A stretch of 64,000 nt of DNA from Candidatus Borrarchaeum weybense (GCA_019057385.1 JAHQJS010000007.1:32001-96000), one strand, 5' to 3'; positions 17,228 to 34,871 are shown, counted from the stretch's first letter. A program made the numbers and translations. The notes: generated by a model not told the origin, from the sequence alone.

Positions 17228-17669
17228 TTATCTCATGCCCCTGCCTTAAACTTAAAGTTTATGAAATAACACCTCAGATGTAACATCTTATAAACTTACC
17301 TATTTCCTTTTAAATCACTATTCGATTTATACGAGCGCGAAGGCGCGTCTCTTTATAAACTTTAAATAGGTTCTACTACATTAGACTTTATTTAAATACT
17401 TCTTATGTTAATTGCCTATCGTTCATAAGAATGCTATTCTAATGCGAATAGATGGTTTAAAGAGATTATTGCTATTTATCTTGTGTTTAGTATTGGCAGA
17501 AATTTTCGATATATTCTTCGTTTTATTAAACGCAATAGTCGTGGTATTAAACGAAATGTATGTTTGATTGATGATCAATGTTTTTCTTGAATTAAAGCGA
17601 AATTAAAGCTATTTTAGAAAACTTTATATTTTTGTAAAAGAAGAGTTATTTCTACATAGGGAATTAATA

Positions 17670-18062
17670 GTGCTGCCCTTAAATAAAGCTCTGCATAACT
17701 ATAAGAGCTCATCTAAAAACTATCATAACCACTATATATTCTATTTAATGGGAGGAGTATTCTTGGGTGCTTTTTGGGCGATCGAGCGAGAAGTAAGGCA
17801 ATGTCAACGCCTTATTAATCATCTTTTATGGCATACTGACAAAATACACACAAAGGATTCTCTGGCTCGATTTTTCCGATATCATGATGATGTAGAATTG
17901 CGATTAGATCGTCTTGTAGATCTGGATATCTTACAAAGAAGTGGATCCGGAGCATACATGGTATCAAAGAACCAACTGGTTCATGAAGCAATAAAACGTA
18001 TTAATGAAAGAGATAGGACAGCTCGAAATCTCGTTAACTCTGTACTATCTCATTTTTTTTGA
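17670..18062 (+). CDS. Hypothetical small wHTH-like protein (probable start TTG ~17763 after GGAGG)
   Basis: LDRLVDLDILQRSGSGAYMV resembles a wHTH recognition helix and wing. Confidence 0.55.
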   Translation: MLPLNKALHNYKSSSKNYHNHYIFYLMGGVFLGAFWAIEREVRQCQRLINHLLWHTDKIHTKDSLARFFRYHDDVELRLDRLVDLDILQRSGSGAYMVSKNQLVHEAIKRINERDRTARNLVNSVLSHFF

Positions 18063-18178
18063 AGCATGGATTTTCATAATTCAATAACATAATGAATTAT
18101 ATTCACCGCTACTCAAGATTTAGATGAGTATAGGTCTTCACTTCTTTTTAAGCAAATTTTATCTCAATATATTAAGGA

Positions 18179-18892
18179 TTGAGAAGTGGAATGGACCAAA
18201 AACCTATTCTTCCAACGGCAGCGCTACCTATCGATAGATTATTAGAGGGTGGTTTGCATACTGGTGAAGTTACAACGGTTTTCGGAGAAGCGGCAACTGG
18301 AAAATCAACACTGGCGTATCAGAGTCTTATTAATGTAGCGAAGATGGAACACTCTACCATTTATATTGATACAGAACATAAGTTTAATACTCGAAGAATA
18401 GCTCAAATTGATGATAAAACTGATGTTTCAGATTTTATTGCACTATTCCAACCAGAGACTTTCACTCAACAGATACAATATCTAAAAAATCTGAAGGCTC
18501 TATTAAATGAAAGACCGTTTAAACTTCTAATTATAGACACAATTTCTAATTTGTACCGCTTAGAATCATGTTCCATAGAGAAAAGCATAGCTCTAAGAAG
18601 ATTACTGGAACAACATCTGGCCCGAATATACTGTGAGACGCGCCGATATAGTTTATTTACTCTTATTCTCAGTCAAGTAAGAAGTTTTAAAGGCAAGACT
18701 ACCCCCATAGGAGAAGATTGTCTTTATGCATACTCTAGAAAATTAGTAGAATTAAGGAAAGGATTGATTAACAATAAACGATTTGCGATTCTAAGAAAAG
18801 GAAGAAGTAATATGATTGATGAGAGCTTACCATATGTTATAACAGAAAAAGGATTTAGTTCAATAAATGAAATAAGGCTTTTGTCTTTTTAA
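18179..18892 (+). CDS. radB: RadB-like RecA-superfamily ATPase
   Basis: IDRLLEGGL, GEAATGKS Walker A, YIDTE, LLIIDTIS Walker B; no N-terminal HhH; KGR where RadB usually has KHR. Confidence 0.75.
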   Translation: MRSGMDQKPILPTAALPIDRLLEGGLHTGEVTTVFGEAATGKSTLAYQSLINVAKMEHSTIYIDTEHKFNTRRIAQIDDKTDVSDFIALFQPETFTQQIQYLKNLKALLNERPFKLLIIDTISNLYRLESCSIEKSIALRRLLEQHLARIYCETRRYSLFTLILSQVRSFKGKTTPIGEDCLYAYSRKLVELRKGLINNKRFAILRKGRSNMIDESLPYVITEKGFSSINEIRLLSF

Positions 18893-26350: not shown

Positions 26351-26608
26351 TATTTCTCCACAAGAAGACCCCTTCAACGTGTTGGGGGGATGAATTGCGT
26401 GTGTTACTTGTTTCACTTTCACGATACTCCCTAATCTTTAAATACGGTTTTGCAGAGATTCTAAGTAGAATTGAGCTGAGGTAACACTCGCCAGTTCTCA
26501 CATTCATATCACGTTCAGGGCAGGGACTGCCCGTAGAGCCTGTTTGACATGTCCTGCTGGGGAATGGATGATTCAGGAAGCCAGCCTACTTGTAGGGTGG
26601 TAGTTCAC
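26351..26608 (+). mobile_element. Non-autonomous IS200/IS605 derivative (left end, TATA, omegaRNA scaffold, right end; no ORF)
   Basis: Follows TTTAT. Left end CAAGAAGACCCC...GGGGGGATGAATTGC and the 3' ~90 nt (TCAGGGCAGGGACTGCCCG...GGGTGGTAGTTCAC) nearly match the tnpB element at 49326-50682. Confidence 0.9.
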
Positions 26609-26612
26609 TAAA

Positions 26613-27209
26613 TTAGATAATCTCAAGAAGATAATACAAAGCATTTCGCACATTCAATCCAGTGACTGCACTACAAGGTATAATTTTATCCTCTTCAATG
26701 TCTAAATACTCGCTGATATTTTCTAGGACTTTTGTATTACAATTTGAAAGGTCGATTTTGTTAAGACAGACTACGAAAGGAAGAGATAAAGCATCATGTA
26801 TTAATTCTATGATATCTCGGACTTTTGCTAAGTAACTCTCCGTCATAACTGTAGAATCAATTACCACAAAAACACCCTTAGCGCCTTTCCACCAAATACT
26901 CCATAGCGGCTGATAGTGTGTTTGCCCCCCTAATTCCCATAACATATATGACTGAGAATCGTCTTGCATAAAAACTCTGTAAAAGTCAATTCCAGGTGTA
27001 GGTATGTAGGATTCGCAGATAGTATCAAGATTAGCTGTGTTCTTCTTCTTTTTGACGCCATTAAATGCCGCTTCAATTTTTTTTCCAAAAACTGTTTTAC
27101 CTGCATTGGCAGGTCCCATAAGGAGCAGTTTTGTAACACTCATACGATTAAGTAATTTTGTCGGCTTATTTACCGTTTTGATCTCTGTTGTAAATGACAT
27201 AAAGCTCAC
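26613..27209 (-). CDS. Arf-like small GTPase (eukaryotic signature protein)
   Basis: G1 GPANAGKT, G2 IPTPG, G3 WELGGQ...PLW, G4 NKID, G5 CSAVTG. Confidence 0.88.
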   Translation of the reverse strand: MSFMSFTTEIKTVNKPTKLLNRMSVTKLLLMGPANAGKTVFGKKIEAAFNGVKKKKNTANLDTICESYIPTPGIDFYRVFMQDDSQSYMLWELGGQTHYQPLWSIWWKGAKGVFVVIDSTVMTESYLAKVRDIIELIHDALSLPFVVCLNKIDLSNCNTKVLENISEYLDIEEDKIIPCSAVTGLNVRNALYYLLEII

Positions 27210-27393: not shown

Positions 27394-30348
27394 CTATTCT
27401 TTGCCACTATACTCACAGGATGGATTTAAACACCTTATCTTGCTTTTAGATTTAAAGAGAGGGAGACCACATTGACATTTTTCATCGTGCAATATTGCGT
27501 AGTTGGGCAGCACAAAAGCAGTTTTACAGGGATTCTCATCATTATAATAATTACTACAACCGACAGCCAAACCGATTCTCCGAAGAAAGATAAGCGGCTC
27601 ACCGCATTTTGGACATGAATATTTTTCTTTTTCAAATTTCTCCTTCACAATCATGTCAGGATTCTGACACTGCCGATCGATACAGCAGGTAATATCATAC
27701 CCGCCATAAATATGGTGCATTTTGGGAAGTCCACATCTTTCACATCTTTCAGTCAACAATTTAGCGGTCTTTGGAACTCTATATGATATACCGCAAAGTG
27801 AGCAAATAATCTCATCTTTTTTCTTTACTAAATCGTGTCCACAATTCTTGCAGACACCAATTTTCTTTGAAGAAATATCCACTATTTTTTCTTTTTTTGG
27901 TTTTTTCTCTATTTTATTAATTTCTAAGGTTTTTTTGGGACGAGGCTTTATCACCTTGATTTTTTTCTTGTTAATTATCGGTAAGCTCTCAAAATCGATG
28001 AATGAAACAATTGATTCACATAGAATAGTTTGTTGTATTGGAGACGTAATATAAACAGGAAAAATCCAGTCTTCTTCTTTATTTAGAAATAAAGCCTGTT
28101 CTATTAATTTCTTTTTGTTTAACAACAGTGTTGCATTGATACGTACAGGAAAACTCCAATTTTTTAATCTGAAAAGTGCTTCTTGAGATTCATCAATGTT
28201 CATTCTTTCTCTAATATCCCATTCAGCAGTGATAATAGGCATTTCGTTGATTTTTTTTCGGATCTTTTCTGCATTAGCCTTTTTGATACCAAGTTTAATC
28301 ATTTCTTCTACACTGAGTTGTATCAAGTCCTTTAATCCCATAACATTTGCACTCGCTAACAATGTCGCTATTCTTGCGCCTATACCTCTAACTTGTATTA
28401 ATTCCGAAAATTCCTCAGGTAGTGAATATTCTAGTAAAACACTAAGCCTTTTGATCTTTTCACGAATTAGAATGGATTCAGAGAATTCATCACAGAAACG
28501 TTCCAAAGCCGACAATAGTCTATTAGCGTTTTGTTTTATAACGCGTGCGTCTGTCTGAAACTCAATATCAATTTTTACACCGCCTTTAAGAGATGCAAGC
28601 AAGACTGCGAATACCTTTTCTTGATGTTTTTTCAGATCTTTTACATAACCAGATGCCGAATAACTCTCAATGACATCTCGAAAGACCCCCCGTTCATTTT
28701 TTCTAACTACCATATCGTCAAATTCGCTGGCTTTTGACACAAGTGCAAGGATTTCTTCATCATCAATGATTTCATGAGAGTGAACTGCAACTGCATCAAA
28801 AAAAAGTTTTCCAGTATCTAAACGCAAATAGAACTTTGAGGTGAGGCTTCCTAAAGGTGTGGAAACAAGCCCCAGCTCTGTTTTATTTATAAATCCATCT
28901 GTGATAAGCCGTTCGATACATTCATTTGTAGTATCCATTATTTCTTGTATCTTTAGTTCATCCTTTTGAGAACTATACAAGAACGTGCTTTTCAACCAAT
29001 CACTTATTTCAGCTTCTGTTTTAATAAAATTCAAACTAATCTCTGCATTGAGATGCTCTTCTAATGTTTCGGTTAATCTTGATTCTATTTCTTTCCCAGT
29101 TAATAGTCCCCGATAGTATTCAACGTTTCTTTTTTCTGTAATGATGATCCCATATCCTAGCGCATCAAATTGAGGTCTACCTGCTCTTCCAAGCATCTGA
29201 AGTAGATCTAAAGGGCTTATTTCCTTTTTACCTTTCAAGGGGTCATAGACCGTTGTGTCTTGTACTACAACCACACGAGCAGGCAAGTTCACTCCCCATG
29301 CCAGCGTTGAGGTGGACGCAAGCACCTTTAGAAGTCTATTCTTGAAAGCGGATTCAACAATCTCACGATCATTTCTACTCAAACCCGCATGGTGAAAGGC
29401 TATTCCGTCGACAAAACAGGTACGTAAAATATCATTAACGATCTCTTTTGACATCTTCCCCAATAATTCAGCCTCTTTATTTCCTAAAAGCAATTTTTCG
29501 TTTTCTGAAAAGTTTTGTAATAATTTTTGCGCAGTATCTACAGCCCCGCGTCTACTTGAGACAAAAACTAATGCTTGACCACCAGCATCAATGTGTGGGA
29601 CGATTAAATCGTAACTGAGTTGAATTTTCAGATGCTTATTATTCCATCTATTCTTCGTATCTGGTTTATACCCACAAACGGTCGCTTCTAGATTTACAGG
29701 TCTGTAAATGTCATCAAAAACAAAGGTGCCCGATTTCTTTGCACCTAACCATGCTGCTACGTCTTCAATATTCTTCATTGTAGCACTCAAAGCTACTATT
29801 CGTAAAGCTTCATTAAGTTTTTTTAAACGTGATATCAGTACCTCTAAAGCTCCTCCTCTTTCGGGTGAGTCTAAAAGATGTACTTCATCGATTATAATAG
29901 TATCTATACGGTTGATAAACTCGTATGTAGTGCTCATGAATTTTCTACTAGCACTATCAACTTTTTCAGGTGTAGATATTATTATATGTGCTTTAGCGGC
30001 TTTTCTAGGCTCAATCTCAGTTTCTCCAGTTGTAACATACACGTTATAGCCTAAAGGTTCGAATTTATTGGTCCACTCATCAAGTTTTTCGTAACTTAGG
30101 GCTTTGTATGGTGCTATGTAAACGACTTTTTTAGTGGAATCATTTTGATGCTTTATTAAAGCCCTTAAAATAGCAAGTTCACCGATAACTGTTTTGCCGG
30201 AAGCTGTGGGAGCTGCAACAACCACATTCTCTTCCCGGTTAAAAGTGATATCAAAAACAGCCGATTGCATCTTATTAAAACGTTCAAAGGGAAATACACT
30301 TTTTAATGTTTCAGGAATCACTTCTGTTACTTTTAGTTCAACAGCCAC
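27394..30348 (-). CDS. Ski2-like (Hel308/Mer3/Brr2-type) helicase with Sec63/HhH region and C-terminal multi-Zn-ribbon domain
   Basis: FNKMQS, APTASGKT, DEVH, LSAT, FHHAGL, STLAWGVNLPA, QMLGRAGRPQFD, GIGA HhH; many CxxC pairs at the C-terminus. Confidence 0.92.
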   Translation of the reverse strand: MAVELKVTEVIPETLKSVFPFERFNKMQSAVFDITFNREENVVVAAPTASGKTVIGELAILRALIKHQNDSTKKVVYIAPYKALSYEKLDEWTNKFEPLGYNVYVTTGETEIEPRKAAKAHIIISTPEKVDSASRKFMSTTYEFINRIDTIIIDEVHLLDSPERGGALEVLISRLKKLNEALRIVALSATMKNIEDVAAWLGAKKSGTFVFDDIYRPVNLEATVCGYKPDTKNRWNNKHLKIQLSYDLIVPHIDAGGQALVFVSSRRGAVDTAQKLLQNFSENEKLLLGNKEAELLGKMSKEIVNDILRTCFVDGIAFHHAGLSRNDREIVESAFKNRLLKVLASTSTLAWGVNLPARVVVVQDTTVYDPLKGKKEISPLDLLQMLGRAGRPQFDALGYGIIITEKRNVEYYRGLLTGKEIESRLTETLEEHLNAEISLNFIKTEAEISDWLKSTFLYSSQKDELKIQEIMDTTNECIERLITDGFINKTELGLVSTPLGSLTSKFYLRLDTGKLFFDAVAVHSHEIIDDEEILALVSKASEFDDMVVRKNERGVFRDVIESYSASGYVKDLKKHQEKVFAVLLASLKGGVKIDIEFQTDARVIKQNANRLLSALERFCDEFSESILIREKIKRLSVLLEYSLPEEFSELIQVRGIGARIATLLASANVMGLKDLIQLSVEEMIKLGIKKANAEKIRKKINEMPIITAEWDIRERMNIDESQEALFRLKNWSFPVRINATLLLNKKKLIEQALFLNKEEDWIFPVYITSPIQQTILCESIVSFIDFESLPIINKKKIKVIKPRPKKTLEINKIEKKPKKEKIVDISSKKIGVCKNCGHDLVKKKDEIICSLCGISYRVPKTAKLLTERCERCGLPKMHHIYGGYDITCCIDRQCQNPDMIVKEKFEKEKYSCPKCGEPLIFLRRIGLAVGCSNYYNDENPCKTAFVLPNYAILHDEKCQCGLPLFKSKSKIRCLNPSCEYSGKE

Positions 30349-30563
30349 TACAATTCCTCAAAAATATTTGGAGTAACCAGTTCATGAATAACGCACAGGT
30401 CATTTATTGATTGAACATTCAGTAATAAACGTTTTCCATACTTCATTTTTTAATAACAAATTAAAGAAAATATCTAACGTCAGTTCTAATACTATTGCAT
30501 TGTTTTCGAATTTTGCTTCAAATATAATACACCTTAAGAAATTCATCTATTAGCATTTAAATT

Positions 30564-30638
30564 AAAAAATAAGGGGGGGAGATTTTGAGAATACTTAGGA
30601 GGGATCCAGGCGTTTGTTAAATCTCAAAATCTCTCTAC
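30564..30638 (-). ncRNA. Candidate ~70-nt hairpin sRNA with anti-Shine-Dalgarno-like loop
   Basis: Minus-strand TTTTTAAAT at 30666-30658, 12-bp perfect stem GAGATTTTGAGA/TCTCAAAATCTC, loop containing CTGGATCCCTCCT, T-rich end. Confidence 0.55.
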
Positions 30639-30853
30639 TATCATTTGAATGCACCTCATTTAAAAACAAATGAATCCTACATGAATTTTTAAATTTATAG
30701 AATAACGCATTTCCTAAGATTTCAACAACTTCTTTTAGTAGAAATCATATCTTGACTTTTTACAACCCTTTAGCATGATTTCTGCTTTATAAACGAACTC
30801 CAAAGATAGTATATGACTATCCAGTTTACTAGGAGTGTATTGAAATAACAATT

Positions 30854-32812
30854 ATGAGTTCATCGCTACTAACATACTTTCCGTATTCAAATTTGAGACC
30901 TCATCAAGACAAATTAATTCTCCTTTCAAAAAATGTCATTAAAAACGGACTTAATGCCATCATAGAGGCACCAACTGGTATCGGCAAGACTTTAGGTATA
31001 TTAGCAGGAGTTCTTCCTGAATTAATTACGCATGATATGAAATTGCTGTATGTTTGCAGAACTCACACACAAATGACCCGAGTAATTGAAGAACTAAGAG
31101 CAATCGTTGCCAAAAGAGGTCATCACATCAAAGGTATCTCAATTGGTGGTAAGCATGTAATGTGTTTAAAATCGAATGTACGCAATATTCCTGACGCTGA
31201 GATCTTAAACGATACTTGCAATGCAATTAAGAAGAAATGTCACTTTTTTCAAAGAACAAAAGGATTCAATATTGAATCTTTGCTCGATGAACTTAATAAA
31301 TGCCCAATGACTAGCCAAGATGTTTACAAATTTTCAAAAATGCATGGATTATGCCCATTTGAACTACAGAAGAAATTATTGCCAAATATGGATGTTATAA
31401 CATTATCTTATCAATATTTTTTTAACCCAATACTACGATACTACGTTATTGAGAGATTTATTGAGTTGGCAAATTGTTTTATCATCTTAGACGAGGCCCA
31501 TAACCTGCCCAGTATCGTTAAATCCATTATATCACTAAAACTTAAATTATCAAGCATCAAGAACGCTCTTGAAGAAGTACAAACTTACCCTCATATAGTA
31601 CAACTTAAAAACCCTGAAACAATCAGTGACTTCTTATCGAATATCTATGTGAAAACAATTGAATATGCACGTTCGAAAAGGAGAGAGAACAAAGAGGTCA
31701 AAATTACATCTAGAAAGGAAAAAGATACTTTTCGAAGCCATATTTCCTTATGTACGGACCTTGATAAACAAGGAATTAACTTTTTAATCGATCGGATAAT
31801 CGCATGGGGCGAAAGAATTAGAGAATATCGAGCAAAAAGCGAGAATGTTGCGCGGTCATCGCTTTATAGGGTCGGAAAGTTTCTAAAATCAATGGAAAAG
31901 GCAGTTACAGATCCCGTTTTTGAAGTGATTTTAAAAAAACAAAAACTCCCTTCTAAAGAAACATATCTTTTAGAACTTATATCATTCGATCCAAGACCTA
32001 TAACACAGCCACTATTCGACCGCGTATACGGATCTATTGCAATGTCAGGGACAATGCAACCTTTAAATGCGTTTGCAGATGTCGTTGGGCTGAATACCCC
32101 TCTTTACGAAGCGTTTAGTTCACCATACAATACCGATAATTTTCTTGTTCTTGGAGTTTCGAAACTCCATAGCAAAGGAGGAGGTAGGAAAATGCTCCTA
32201 GGAATGCAAAATGCCTATGTTGATAGGCTCACAGAGGTAATAAGAAATACAGATGGAAATATAGGTGTTTTCTGCGCATCTTATGACATTTTAAGTTTGT
32301 TGGAAACCCCATTATCAAAAAAAGTCGATGAACTTGGAAAATTTCTTTTTGTTGAACAAGCTAATATGCCATCCTATCTTAGTGAAAGAATGGTAGGAGA
32401 ATTCAAAAAATTTGGCGATCTTGGGGGAGCTGTATTATTGGGTGTAATGGGAGGTAGGAACTCAGAAGGTCAAGACTTTCCAGGAAGGACCATGTCGTCC
32501 GTATGCATTGTGGGTGTTCCTTTTTCACAGTTTAATATTAGAACTAAGCTAGAAATCCAGTATTATGAGCGTGCTTTCCCAAGAAAAGGAAGACTCTACG
32601 CTTACATCATACCTGCTATGCGACGAGCAGCACAGGCAGCTGGAAGAGTTATTCGATCCTTATCAGATCGGGGTATCATCATCTTTATGGATCAGCGTTA
32701 CCTCTACCGTACCTATAACAGATTTTTGCCGTTATGGTTACGAGAAAATATGAAACAGGTGAATATCAAACCTGGTAATTTAGGCAAAAAAGTAATAAGC
32801 TTTTTTAATTAG
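30854..32812 (+). CDS. XPD/Rad3/DinG-family Fe-S DNA helicase
   Basis: LRPHQ, EAPTGIGKT, RTHTQ, four Fe-S-type Cys (MCL, TCN, KCH, LCPF), DEAHNL, SGT, SEGQDF, QAAGRVIRS. Confidence 0.92.
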   Translation: MSSSLLTYFPYSNLRPHQDKLILLSKNVIKNGLNAIIEAPTGIGKTLGILAGVLPELITHDMKLLYVCRTHTQMTRVIEELRAIVAKRGHHIKGISIGGKHVMCLKSNVRNIPDAEILNDTCNAIKKKCHFFQRTKGFNIESLLDELNKCPMTSQDVYKFSKMHGLCPFELQKKLLPNMDVITLSYQYFFNPILRYYVIERFIELANCFIILDEAHNLPSIVKSIISLKLKLSSIKNALEEVQTYPHIVQLKNPETISDFLSNIYVKTIEYARSKRRENKEVKITSRKEKDTFRSHISLCTDLDKQGINFLIDRIIAWGERIREYRAKSENVARSSLYRVGKFLKSMEKAVTDPVFEVILKKQKLPSKETYLLELISFDPRPITQPLFDRVYGSIAMSGTMQPLNAFADVVGLNTPLYEAFSSPYNTDNFLVLGVSKLHSKGGGRKMLLGMQNAYVDRLTEVIRNTDGNIGVFCASYDILSLLETPLSKKVDELGKFLFVEQANMPSYLSERMVGEFKKFGDLGGAVLLGVMGGRNSEGQDFPGRTMSSVCIVGVPFSQFNIRTKLEIQYYERAFPRKGRLYAYIIPAMRRAAQAAGRVIRSLSDRGIIIFMDQRYLYRTYNRFLPLWLRENMKQVNIKPGNLGKKVISFFN

Positions 32813-34013: not shown

Positions 34014-34269
34014 AATATTCTCCACAAGAAGACCCCTCAACTTGTTGGGGGGATGAATTGCATTACTTGTTTCACTTTCACAACAGTCTCTAACCTTTAA
34101 ATAGCTATGTGCACATAACAAGTAGGCAGAATTGAGCTGAGGTCATACTCGCCGGTTCTCAAAATAACATCACGTTCAGGGCAGGGACTGCCCGTAGAGC
34201 CTGTTTGACATGTCCCGTTGGGGAATGGATGATTCAGGAAGCCAGCCTACTTGTAGGGTGGTAGTTCAC
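34014..34269 (+). mobile_element. Second non-autonomous IS200/IS605 omegaRNA cassette
   Basis: Follows TTTAT (34009-34013); same organisation as 26351-26608; ends GTAGTTCAC and supplies the stop codon of the convergent HAD gene. Confidence 0.9.
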
Positions 34270-34871
34270 TCTGATGAAAATATTCCTGAAGAAAGAAGCG
34301 TAGGTAAGCCTTTTAAGTTGGAGATCACAGTAAATCCGCTTCCATGTCTATTTGGGTCATAGAAGTTCTTTCTATCTATAAGAACAGCATTGCATCCGAG
34401 TTCAAGTGCTGAATAGACATCATTTAATTTATCGCCAATGACGAGGACTTCAGTAGCATGTAATTGGACATTCGATAAAATTAACTTGATTTGACCAATT
34501 CTAGTCGCCTCATCGTCCCTTGTAGCAATGGGTATACCTTGTATACCTAGTCTTTCAATAATTATTCGAGTTACATTTGCACCTTGAAATGTCACCACTC
34601 CAAGTCTGTATTTAGATGATAACTCTCTTAACAGTTCAGGTGAGTCATCTAGAAATTCAAGTTGACTAAGGGAAGCGAGTTCATATTCTTCAATGGTTCT
34701 CGATACTACTTCAAATTTTTCAGTATCCCAAATCCTCGTAACAAGTTCCAACAACGACTTAAACTCTACTCCTAACAAGTCTTCAATACGACTAACTACT
34801 TTCCCCCAGTCTATTGAAAGGTGAACTAACGTTCTATCCAAGTCGAAGATTATACCTTGGACTTTAGACAT
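34266..34871 (-). CDS. HAD-superfamily hydrolase
   Basis: IFDLDRTL, VIGDKLNDV. Confidence 0.85.
   Translation of the reverse strand: MSKVQGIIFDLDRTLVHLSIDWGKVVSRIEDLLGVEFKSLLELVTRIWDTEKFEVVSRTIEEYELASLSQLEFLDDSPELLRELSSKYRLGVVTFQGANVTRIIIERLGIQGIPIATRDDEATRIGQIKLILSNVQLHATEVLVIGDKLNDVYSALELGCNAVLIDRKNFYDPNRHGSGFTVISNLKGLPTLLSSGIFSSE

What the first reader, a model, noticed from the sequence alone, without database searches (positions are those of the whole stretch)
30564..30667. Candidate sRNA displaying a 16S anti-Shine-Dalgarno mimic
Seen on the minus strand: TATA-like TTTTTAAAT, then about 20-25 nt later GAGAGATTTTGAGA-TTTAACAAACGCCTGGATCCCTCCTAAGTAT-TCTCAAAATCTCCCCCCC-TTATTTTTT. Established: archaeal 16S rRNA ends ...CUGGAUCACCUCCU. 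The loop matches 13 of those 14 nt, with one A missing. Many genes in this window use GGAGG. Inference: a stand-alone hairpin RNA that could block Shine-Dalgarno sites in trans or decoy a factor that binds the 16S 3' end. It lies between the divergent Ski2-like and XPD helicase genes.
Basis: partly seen in the sequence, partly recalled or inferred. Interest (0 to 1): 0.7.

Follow-up and report, generated by a model that had tools for sequence, protein, structure and literature searches.

The report
Conserved Asgard hairpin RNA mimicking 16S tail
A short hairpin-RNA gene kept in one genus of uncultured Asgard archaea (Sifarchaeum/Borrarchaeum) shows, in an open loop, an almost unchanging near-copy of the ribosome's mRNA-docking tail, so it probably acts on translation start or on factors that bind that tail, though nothing shows it is expressed.

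Summary
On the minus strand lie a TATA-like box (30658-30666), a perfect 12-bp stem (30622-30633 with 30579-30590), a 31-nt loop, a C-run and a T6 run (30564-69). Loop positions 30597-30609 match the genome's own 16S 3' end in 13 of 14 nt, with one A missing.

It is not a MITE: it is single-copy. It is not chance: 8 variants from same-genus genomes and metagenomes (7 distinct in the RNA core) keep it in the same place, between the XPD and Ski2-like helicase genes. Between the two clades the stem arms are 93-100% identical and the loop's 3' half 96%. The loop's 5' half is 35% and the flanks 48-69%. Two U-G wobbles would be C-A mismatches on the plus strand, which favours a minus-strand RNA.

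No Rfam family matches. I found it in no genome outside the genus. There is no second copy or sister class in this genome, and no extended antisense target. No RNA data could be obtained, so expression and function remain untested.

Best reading: a new, genus-restricted small RNA of the known anti-Shine-Dalgarno-seed kind. The conserved CUGGAUC part is not needed for SD pairing, so a Nob1/Dim2 decoy reading stays open. This scan has noted analogous anti-SD-loop sRNA candidates on other, unrelated DNA, but not this element.

The parts
30658..30666 (-). TATA-like box TTTTTAAAT (TTTATAAAT in the Sifarchaeum clade, TTTTTAAGT in one metagenome variant). Its centre lies about 26 nt upstream of the stem base.
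   Evidence: Sequence. Conserved in all 8 variants. The spacing rule is established knowledge of archaeal promoters.
30634..30637 (-). Predicted transcription start (T-A-G-A, pyrimidine-purine), inferred only from TATA spacing.
   Evidence: Inference. No RNA data were available.
30622..30633 (-). 5' stem arm GAGAUUUUGAGA.
   Evidence: Fold. 100% identical in all variants.
30611..30621 (-). Variable 5' half of the loop. In the Sifarchaeum clade this half pairs with a 2-nt insertion on the 3' side and narrows the loop onto the conserved motif.
   Evidence: 35% identity between clades. Alternative fold of G003, M26 and M30.
30591..30610 (-). Invariant 3' half of the loop, CCUGGAUCCCUCCUAAGUAU. 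It is a near-copy of the 16S 3' tail (CUGGAUCACCUCCU), contains CCUCC (anti-SD) and the self-complementary GGAUCC. Five of the eight variants (G004/M27, G002, M28, M29) lack one more C.
   Evidence: (96% identity between clades).
30579..30590 (-). 3' stem arm UCUCAAAAUCUC. An A/G polymorphism here gives U-A or U-G on the minus-strand RNA.
   Evidence: 12 of 12 pairs are standard in all sequences, with U-G in 4 and U-A in 3 of 7 distinct sequences.
30573..30578 (-). Unpaired C-rich tail. It forms C7 together with the last stem base. Variants read CCCCCG, GCCCUC, CCCCC, and CUCC in M28, where stem end plus tail read CUCCUCCUUA.
30564..30569 (-). T6 run, the putative archaeal oligo-T terminator. 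Invariant in all variants.
   Evidence: Its role is inferred from established knowledge of archaeal termination.
27394..30348 (-). Downstream neighbour: a 984-aa Ski2/Hel308/Brr2-like helicase with a GTG start preceded by GAGG. This is context, not shown to be part of the unit.
30854..32812 (+). Divergent neighbour: XPD helicase, with its own conserved TATA (CTTTATAAA) at 30785-30793 on the plus strand. Context only.

Best explanation
This is a genus-restricted small non-coding RNA gene of Sifarchaeum/Borrarchaeum-type Asgard archaea.

Inferred steps: transcription starts about 26 nt downstream of the centre of the conserved TATA-like box, near 30636, on the minus strand. It stops at the T6 run (30564-30569), which gives an RNA of about 73 nt.

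Shown by sequence and fold: the RNA is one 12-bp hairpin holding open a 30-34-nt loop, followed by a C-rich single-stranded tail. The loop's 3' 19-20 nt, CCUGGAU(C)CCUCCUAAGUAU, are invariant and nearly copy the single-stranded 3' tail of 16S rRNA.

Most likely mechanism (inferred, not shown): the exposed CCUCC(U) in the loop, and perhaps the C-rich tail, pair with GGAGG-type Shine-Dalgarno sites of mRNAs in trans. This occludes them from the 30S subunit. SD sites of the form UAGGAGGG would be preferred, because the loop reads CCCUCCUA.
For: 1. Anatomy: TATA-like box, 12-bp stem, open loop, C-tail and T6 are all present.

2. Single copy in the 4.18-Mb genome.

3. The same element sits at the same place between XPD and the helicase gene. 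It is present in three of the four same-genus genomes searched and in five metagenome contigs, one identical to a genome copy, giving 8 variants in all, 7 distinct in the RNA core.

4. It is an island of conservation. Between clades the identities are stem arms 1.00 and 0.93, loop 3' half 0.96, loop 5' half 0.35, and flanks 0.48-0.69.

5. All 12 pairs stay standard pairs in every variant.

6. Strand: the only stem change is U-A to U-G on the minus strand, which would be C-A on the plus strand. A second U-G appears in the extra helix of the Sifarchaeum clade. TATA and T6 are correctly placed only for the minus strand.

7. In the Sifarchaeum clade the variable loop half and a 2-nt insertion form extra pairs. 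These narrow the loop onto exactly the conserved motif.

8. The motif matches the genome's own 16S tail in 13 of 14 nt. Only 1 of 200,000 loop shuffles does as well.

9. The organism uses SD sites: GGAG peaks at -15 to -10. Several of the best-pairing start regions carry UAGGAGGG-type SDs.

10. Precedent: the archaeal sRNA41 of Methanosarcina mazei represses targets by masking ribosome-binding sites (PMC5867862).
Against: No expression data exist: no RNA run was listed. Promoter, start and terminator are inferred from motifs only.

There is no compensatory double change in the stem, so the structure is supported by conservation and one wobble, not by covariation.

The predicted plus-strand fold is more stable, at -17 to -25 against -15 to -22 kcal/mol, because the G-run adds G-U pairs.

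Pairing of the loop with start regions is only modestly better than with internal coding windows (486 against 355 at -12 kcal/mol or lower). It lies within the range of shuffled loops, 275-632.

No target with extended complementarity exists in the genome.

SD pairing does not explain why CCUGGAUC and UAAGUAU are also invariant.

All variants come from one genus, so their conservation is not deep.
Confidence: 0.4

Rival explanations
1. Protein decoy or substrate mimic. The hairpin displays a copy of the pre-16S 3' end, that is the tail plus the first trailer bases. It would bind or be cut by factors that recognise that sequence, such as the endonuclease Nob1 or the KH protein Dim2/Pno1. This would titrate them or report on their availability.
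For: The invariant part covers CUGGAUC as well as CCUCCU, which SD pairing does not require.

The alignment to the genome's own rRNA runs past the mature end: CCUCCUAAGUA against CCUCCUACGUA, 19 of 22 overall.

Pyrococcus Nob1 cleaves artificial hairpins that carry 16-18 nt of the D-site (AUCACCUCCUAUCGCC) in their loop (PMC3326319). That is the design seen here.

aDim2p binds the 3' end fragment of 16S rRNA (Jia et al. 2010, cited in PMC12127562).

The genome encodes a Nob1-type PIN_6 protein at G000:C4:14222-14482.
Against: The A of GAUCACC is missing, and five of the eight variants lack AC. Whether either protein tolerates this is unknown.

The trailer similarity, 5 of 7 in AT-rich sequence, is weak.

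The same-genus MAGs lack assembled 16S genes, so co-variation with their trailers could not be tested.

No natural decoy of this kind is known to me.
Confidence: 0.13
2. Cis-acting element of the helicase transcription unit. The hairpin plus T6 would be a leader, attenuator or insulating terminator in a long 5' region of the Ski2-like helicase gene, or a stop for upstream antisense transcription from the XPD promoter. It would not be a free sRNA.
For: It lies 216 nt (T-run) to 231 nt (stem) upstream of the helicase start, on the same strand.

In this genome alone, a 66-67-bp segment carrying the helicase's proximal TATA (TTTATAAAA in the relatives) is missing. Upstream promoters may therefore matter here.
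Against: All seven relatives have a separate TATA close to the helicase gene, and all eight variants have a conserved BRE/TATA-like block at 30443-30422.

The 120 nt between the T-run and that block are poorly conserved, 48% between clades.

Archaeal termination needs no hairpin, and this reading does not explain an invariant loop sequence.
Confidence: 0.15
3. The RNA is made from the plus strand. It would then display the complement, UACUUAGGAGGGAUCCAGG, a 'super-SD' able to pair with the 16S 3' tail itself. That would make it a ribosome-binding decoy or a relic leader.
For: The hairpin is palindromic, and the plus-strand fold is predicted to be more stable.

A conserved T-rich block, GAATTTTTAAAT, lies about 50 nt downstream on the plus strand.
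Against: No suitably placed TATA exists on the plus strand: TTTAAAT at 30552-30560 would start transcription inside the stem.

Both wobble positions become C-A mismatches on the plus strand.

The short ORFs that follow the SD-like motif are not conserved in frame or length (read by eye).
Confidence: 0.08
4. A functional hairpin RNA or DNA element whose likeness to the 16S tail is coincidental. The conserved loop would serve another partner, such as an unknown RNA-binding protein, or a kissing dimer through GGAUCC. It could also be a DNA-level operator or replication-origin element.
For: The hypothesis was formed after seeing the sequence. Three sites per genome lie within 1 edit of the 14-mer.

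GGAUCC is a perfect palindrome kept in all variants, and the 'missing A' is what creates it.

The stem sequence is conserved more strictly than structure alone would require.
Against: Only 1 of 200,000 loop shuffles matches as well. The best hit on the rRNA locus is exactly the functional tail.

Against DNA-level readings: arm spacing varies from 30 to 34 bp, and the palindrome is broken at the DNA level in 5 of 8 variants.

The nearest orc1/cdc6 gene is about 160 kb away.
Confidence: 0.15

Closest known systems
Methanosarcina mazei sRNA41 (also sRNA154), archaeal intergenic sRNAs that mask ribosome-binding sites (PMC5867862; Buddeweg et al. 2018, cited there)
   Same: An archaeal, intergenic, stand-alone small RNA. 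Its proposed action is pairing of an exposed anti-SD-like stretch with the RBS of mRNAs to repress translation.
   Different: I detected no sequence or structure homology. sRNA41 has validated expression and targets, and this element has neither. This element copies much more of the 16S tail (CUGGAUC plus CCUCCU) than a seed needs. It is confined to one Asgard genus.
C-rich or anti-SD-seed sRNAs of bacteria: RoxS/RsaE (Firmicutes), CcsR/Cuckoo/alpha-r14 (Alphaproteobacteria), LhrC (Listeria). Named from general knowledge and from earlier notes of this scan.
   Same: Short hairpin RNAs that expose C/U-rich motifs in loops or tails and pair with SD sequences. The C-run after the stem recalls their C-rich regions.
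   Different: A different domain of life. No Rfam family reached threshold on this region. There is a single hairpin with a single motif rather than repeated C-rich loops, and no Hfq context.
Pre-16S rRNA D-site, the substrate of archaeal Nob1, and the 16S 3' end fragment bound by aDim2p (PMC3326319; Jia et al. 2010, PDB 3AEV, cited in PMC12127562)
   Same: The loop carries GAUC(A)CCUCCU followed by A/U-rich bases, in single-stranded form, closed by a stable stem. This resembles the artificial hairpin substrates that PhNob1 cleaves.
   Different: One or two bases (A or AC) are missing. The element is not part of an rRNA operon. Binding or cleavage is untested. The stem has no counterpart in helix 45.
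OLE RNA P6 substructure, an ASD/SD mimic bound by ribosomal protein bS21
   Same: A non-ribosomal RNA that imitates the anti-SD region and may be read by a ribosome-associated protein.
   Different: OLE is a bacterial, large, multi-domain RNA. No homology was found. The comparison is a lead only and was not tested here.

Membership tests
Trans-acting anti-SD-seed sRNA (functional class, e.g. sRNA41, RoxS/RsaE, CcsR) | Independent transcript with its own promoter and terminator | tested here: inconclusive
   A conserved TATA-like box at the right spacing and an invariant T6 are present. No RNA run could be listed.
Trans-acting anti-SD-seed sRNA (functional class, e.g. sRNA41, RoxS/RsaE, CcsR) | C/U-rich anti-SD motif exposed in an unpaired region | tested here: met
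   CCUCC lies in a 30-34-nt loop closed by a 12-bp stem in all variants. Mean unpaired probability of the motif is 0.51-0.60, with only a weak 3-bp inner helix predicted.
Trans-acting anti-SD-seed sRNA (functional class, e.g. sRNA41, RoxS/RsaE, CcsR) | Pairs with ribosome-binding sites of defined target mRNAs | tested here: inconclusive
   No site within 4 mismatches of the 20-nt complement exists in the genome. Duplex energies with start regions are only modestly better than controls. Some top hits have UAGGAGGG SDs.
Any described Rfam RNA family | Covariance-model match at or near the gathering score | tested here: not met
   The best hit on the hairpin is the plant MIR2118 model at 20.7 bits against a gathering score of 85, E = 0.28. 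Nothing else overlaps it.
   Only the self-hit appears in the 4.18-Mb genome, and the next hits have E above 0.2. The arm 12-mer occurs nowhere else in the window. The element is fixed at one syntenic site in all 8 variants.
Terminator of an upstream gene | A gene on the same strand ends shortly upstream | tested here: not met
   The upstream neighbour (XPD) is divergent. No conserved ORF lies between 30853 and 30640 on the minus strand. The bacterial-type terminator scan found none.
Nob1 D-site / 16S 3'-tail protein-binding site | Single-stranded GAUCACCUCCU followed by trailer sequence | tested here: inconclusive
   13 of 14 nt of the tail match, and 19 of 22 with the first trailer bases. 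However, the A is missing, or AC in five of the eight variants.
Nob1 D-site / 16S 3'-tail protein-binding site | Bound or cleaved by Nob1 or Dim2 | not testable with these tools
   A PIN_6 (Nob1-type) gene exists at G000:C4:14222-14482. This needs biochemistry.
Archaeal replication origin (ORB inverted repeats) | ORB repeats flanking an AT-rich unwinding element next to orc1/cdc6 | tested here: not met
   The four Cdc6_C genes lie elsewhere, the nearest about 160 kb away on the same contig. The spacer between the arms is the most GC-rich part, its length varies, and the G-run is on one arm only.
C/D-box or H/ACA guide sRNA | Conserved C/D boxes (RUGAUGA, CUGA) or an ACA box with a pseudouridylation pocket | tested here: not met
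   AUGAUAG upstream of the stem is not conserved (AUAAUAC in G004). There is no CUGA or ACA at the 3' side. There are no Rfam snoRNA hits on the hairpin.

The most novel reading that the evidence does not exclude
The hairpin is a natural mimic of the pre-16S rRNA 3' end (D-site), displayed the same way as the artificial hairpin substrates that archaeal Nob1 cleaves. It would bind or be cut by Nob1, Dim2 or another factor that reads the 16S tail. This would couple the availability of late small-subunit maturation or initiation factors to some output. That would be an RNA decoy of a ribosome-biogenesis enzyme in the archaeal lineage closest to eukaryotes.
Probability: 0.12. Interest if true: 0.8.

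Novelty: new member of a known kind. Interest (0 to 1): 0.45.

Why it matters
Almost nothing is known about regulatory RNAs in Asgard archaea, and Sifarchaeia/Borrarchaeia have no cultured member. This is a cleanly delimited candidate of about 73 nt with a specific hypothesis that can be tested in vitro. Its invariant 20-nt loop either masks Shine-Dalgarno sites or imitates the 16S 3' tail for a tail-binding protein.

If the first holds, anti-SD-seed riboregulation extends to Asgard archaea. If the second holds, it would be a new kind of link between ribosome maturation factors and a free RNA. If neither holds, it is still a conserved genus-specific RNA element that annotation pipelines miss.

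Tried and rejected
- **RNA evidence.** The look-up of sequencing runs (kind rna) on window 28500-32500 listed no RNA holder, so read laying could not be used.
- **Rfam.** An E-value search of 30000-31200 gave nothing meaningful.
- **MITE or repeat.** Rejected because the element is single-copy.
- **Wider homologues.** BLAST-type search of 40 relatives and covariance model R1 over the class (6 genomes) and 151 genomes of the phylum found it only in the same genus. The weak hits G017, G007, G031 and G022 and L021-L025 lack the stem or the loop motif, and L024 sits inside a 308-aa ORF. I treated them all as chance.
- **Genus members without it.** G001 has no assembled orthologous locus: its best helicase hit is a 44% paralogue, and the genome is 76% complete. 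G005, from the sister family, has no such hairpin upstream of its helicase homologue.
- **Pattern scan of all species genomes.** It recovered only the three known relatives, chance hits in bacteria, and one genuine 16S end (L046).
- **Coding readings.** The 48-aa ORF 30546-30400 has its ATG lost in three variants (G004/M27, G002, M29) and non-triplet indels in the G003 clade. The tiny ORFs through the hairpin on either strand shift frame between variants. All were rejected.
- **tRNA relation or att-site remnant.** No meaningful alignment to any detected tRNA.
- **A class of similar CCUCC-loop hairpins with T-runs in this genome.** Fifteen were found for CCTCC against 9-15 for permuted motifs, so there is no enrichment, and this one has the longest stem.
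- **Replication origin.** Rejected.
- **Co-variation with the relatives' own 16S trailers.** Not possible, because the same-genus MAGs lack 16S.
- **Pfam Zn_ribbon_NOB1 search.** Uninformative, because the model barely detects archaeal controls.
- **tRNA upstream regions as a promoter reference.** Useless, because the tRNAs are clustered head to tail.

Full report
**What is there**

Read on the minus strand, the 505-bp gap between two divergent helicase genes contains the following parts:
- TTTTTAAAT at 30666-30658.
- 22 nt of spacer.
- A perfect 12-bp stem, GAGAUUUUGAGA at 30633-30622 with UCUCAAAAUCUC at 30590-30579.
- A 31-nt loop at 30621-30591.
- Six further C at 30578-30573.
- UUA, then a T6 run at 30569-30564.

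The flanking genes were confirmed by Pfam. The minus-strand gene (27394-30348) is a Ski2/Hel308/Brr2-like helicase with DEAD, Helicase_C, Sec63 and HHH_5 domains. The plus-strand gene (30854-32812) is XPD with DEAD_2, HBB and Helicase_C_2 domains.

The hairpin folds at -15.9 kcal/mol, z = -3.3, and none of 200 shuffles fold as well. Otherwise the description is exact.

**The 16S likeness**

The genome's single detected 16S gene ends GCGGCUGGAUCACCUCCU and is followed by ACGUAAUU. The loop reads CGCCUGGAUC-CCUCCUAAGUA.

A local alignment of the whole candidate RNA against the 5.7-kb rRNA locus puts its best hit exactly on the 16S 3' end. Nineteen of 22 positions match, with one gap.

How much this means depends on the null model:
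- Nine of 300 shuffles of the RNA score as well somewhere on the locus.
- Three non-rRNA sites in the genome lie within one edit of the 14-mer. The other two appear to sit in coding sequence, judged from 135-nt context only.
- Only 1 of 200,000 composition-preserving shuffles of the loop comes within one edit of the tail.

The match is therefore real, and composition does not explain it. Taken alone, however, it is a post-hoc observation.

**Conservation settles that the element is functional**

The element is single-copy in its 4.18-Mb genome, which removes the MITE reading.

Homologues were found in three of the four same-genus genomes searched and in five metagenome contigs. A pattern scan of species genomes gave the genome copies their names:
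- Candidatus Borrarchaeum yapensis.
- A 'Promethearchaeota' MAG, isolate DZ3M.366.
- Candidatus Sifarchaeum marinoarchaea.

The window therefore belongs to this Sifarchaeia/Borrarchaeia genus of Asgard archaea.

All 8 variants (7 distinct in the RNA core) lie between the same two genes. Identity between the two clades is as follows:

| Region | Identity between clades |
|---|---|
| 5' stem arm | 1.00 |
| 3' stem arm | 0.93 |
| 3' half of the loop | 0.96 |
| 5' half of the loop | 0.35 |
| C-tail plus T-run | 0.72 |
| Flanking intergenic DNA | 0.48-0.69 |

The invariant string is CCUGGAU(C)CCUCCUAAGUAU. Five of the eight variants lack one more C.

All 12 stem pairs are standard pairs in every variant. 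There is no double compensatory change. The structure is therefore supported by conservation, not by covariation.

**Strand**

The hairpin is palindromic, so I tested both strands.

In favour of the minus strand:
- The TATA-like box and the T6 run are correctly placed only on this strand.
- The single variable stem position is U-A in three and U-G in four of the seven distinct sequences. It would be a C-A mismatch on the plus strand.
- In the Sifarchaeum clade the variable loop half and a 2-nt insertion create an extra 8-bp helix, UGAGAUAA with UUGUCUCA. This helix again contains a U-G that would be C-A on the plus strand. It narrows the loop to about 22 nt centred on the conserved motif. I read this as selection for displaying that motif.

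In favour of the plus strand:
- Its predicted fold is more stable, because the G-run adds G-U pairs.

I put the minus strand at roughly three to one.

**Distribution**

A covariance model (R1) found the element only in the genus. It was not found in the single genome of the sister family, nor in the other 146 genomes of the 151 sampled from the phylum.

All weaker hits lacked the stem or motif, or lay inside ORFs. One genus member lacks the locus, probably because its 76%-complete assembly has not captured the orthologous region.

**What it is not**
- No Rfam family matches.
- No conserved C/D or H/ACA boxes are present.
- It has no relation to any tRNA.
- No conserved ORF crosses it or follows it.
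- It is not next to any of the four orc1/cdc6 genes.
- It is not one of a class: hairpin-plus-T-run units with CCUCC in the loop are no more frequent in this genome than those with permuted motifs.

**Mechanism**

The organism does use Shine-Dalgarno sites. GGAG peaks at -15 to -10 before ATG, and is present in 16% of upstream regions against 3.8% in the control region, even with crude gene calls.

The exposed CCCUCCUA could pair with UAGGAGGG-type SDs. Several of the best-pairing start regions carry such sites. Three results weaken the case for a specific target set:
- The overall gain over internal coding windows is modest (486 against 355 at -12 kcal/mol or lower).
- That gain lies within the range of shuffled loops.
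- No extended target exists in the genome.

The closest functional precedent is M. mazei sRNA41, which masks ribosome-binding sites (PMC5867862).

SD pairing leaves one thing unexplained: the invariance of CCUGGAUC and UAAGUAU. Two other facts bear on this.

First, Pyrococcus Nob1 cleaves artificial hairpins whose loops carry 16-18 nt of the 16S D-site (PMC3326319). aDim2p binds the 16S 3' end fragment (Jia et al. 2010, cited in PMC12127562). The natural hairpin here has the same design, and the genome has a Nob1-type PIN_6 gene.

Second, the 'missing A' creates the palindrome GGAUCC, which is kept in all variants. This could support loop-loop dimers.

I therefore rank the readings as follows:
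- Anti-SD sRNA: about 0.4.
- Cis leader, attenuator or insulator: 0.15.
- Functional element with a coincidental 16S likeness: 0.15.
- Tail-binding-factor decoy: 0.13.
- Plus-strand SD-mimic RNA: 0.08.

**Limits**

No RNA data could be obtained. All variants come from one genus. The same-genus MAGs lack 16S genes, so co-variation with their own tails could not be tested.

**Relation to earlier notes of this scan**

The scan's notes list several anti-SD-loop sRNA candidates in unrelated genomes, including one in Woesearchaeota-type archaea.

These notes agree that the kind is recurrent. I did not test them, and they add no evidence for this case. A note on the neighbouring helicase as Mer3/HFM1/Brr2-like fits the Pfam result.

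**Verdict**

This is a real, conserved and previously uncatalogued hairpin element, most likely a small RNA gene. It is a new member of the known kind of anti-SD-displaying sRNAs, with an unusually complete copy of the 16S tail. That copy keeps a more novel decoy reading open.

Noticed in passing
window 30370/30371 junction (minus strand, just upstream of the helicase start at 30348): This genome lacks a 66-67-bp segment that all seven relatives have. In them it carries a canonical TATA (TTTATAAAA) about 60 nt before the helicase GTG. Here the helicase gene may depend on an upstream promoter or on read-through.
   Followed up: partly
window 30422-30443 (minus strand): A 22-nt block, AAGTATGGAAAACGTTTATTAC, is nearly invariant in all 8 variants amid poorly conserved DNA. 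It looks like a BRE plus TATA (GAAAACG/TTTATTA) that would start transcription near 30399. It may be a distal helicase promoter or a second small transcript.
   Followed up: partly
window 30785-30793 (plus strand) and 30752-30765: The XPD promoter block (CTTTATAAA with flanking GGAGTTCG/GCAGAAAT) and a further block, TATCTTGACTTTTT, are conserved across both clades. In the Sifarchaeum clade the XPD start codon context differs from the ATG at 30854.
   Followed up: no
G000:C5:332567-335232 (locus L009): The only 16S rRNA gene found spans 2666 bp for a 1478-position model. It therefore carries about 1.2 kb of inserted sequence, probably intron(s).
   Followed up: no
L046:2231 (Euryarchaeota MAG, contig CAVVIU010000001.1): A genuine archaeal 16S 3' end and trailer reads CTGGATCACCTCCTAAGTATT. 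This is the loop motif of this element plus the missing A. It shows that such a D-site junction occurs in nature, but one hit in the scan is about what chance would give.
   Followed up: partly
L028:1014-1092 (metagenome contig JABAOF010003881.1): In this variant the stem end plus the 3' tail reads CUCCUCCUUA instead of a plain C-run. This adds a second anti-SD-like motif outside the loop.
   Followed up: no
G000 contig C1 (tRNA positions from ARAGORN): Many tRNA genes lie head to tail, with each one's upstream 55 nt being the 3' end of another tRNA. This forms a dense tRNA array. ARAGORN also calls a tRNA with a CUA anticodon ('Pyl') elsewhere in the genome.
   Followed up: no
window 26361-26630, 34022-34290 and 17336-18682 (from earlier notes): Earlier notes of this scan report IS605/TnpB omegaRNA-type elements in this window. 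The hairpin studied here shares no sequence with any other place in the genome, so it is unrelated to them.
   Followed up: partly
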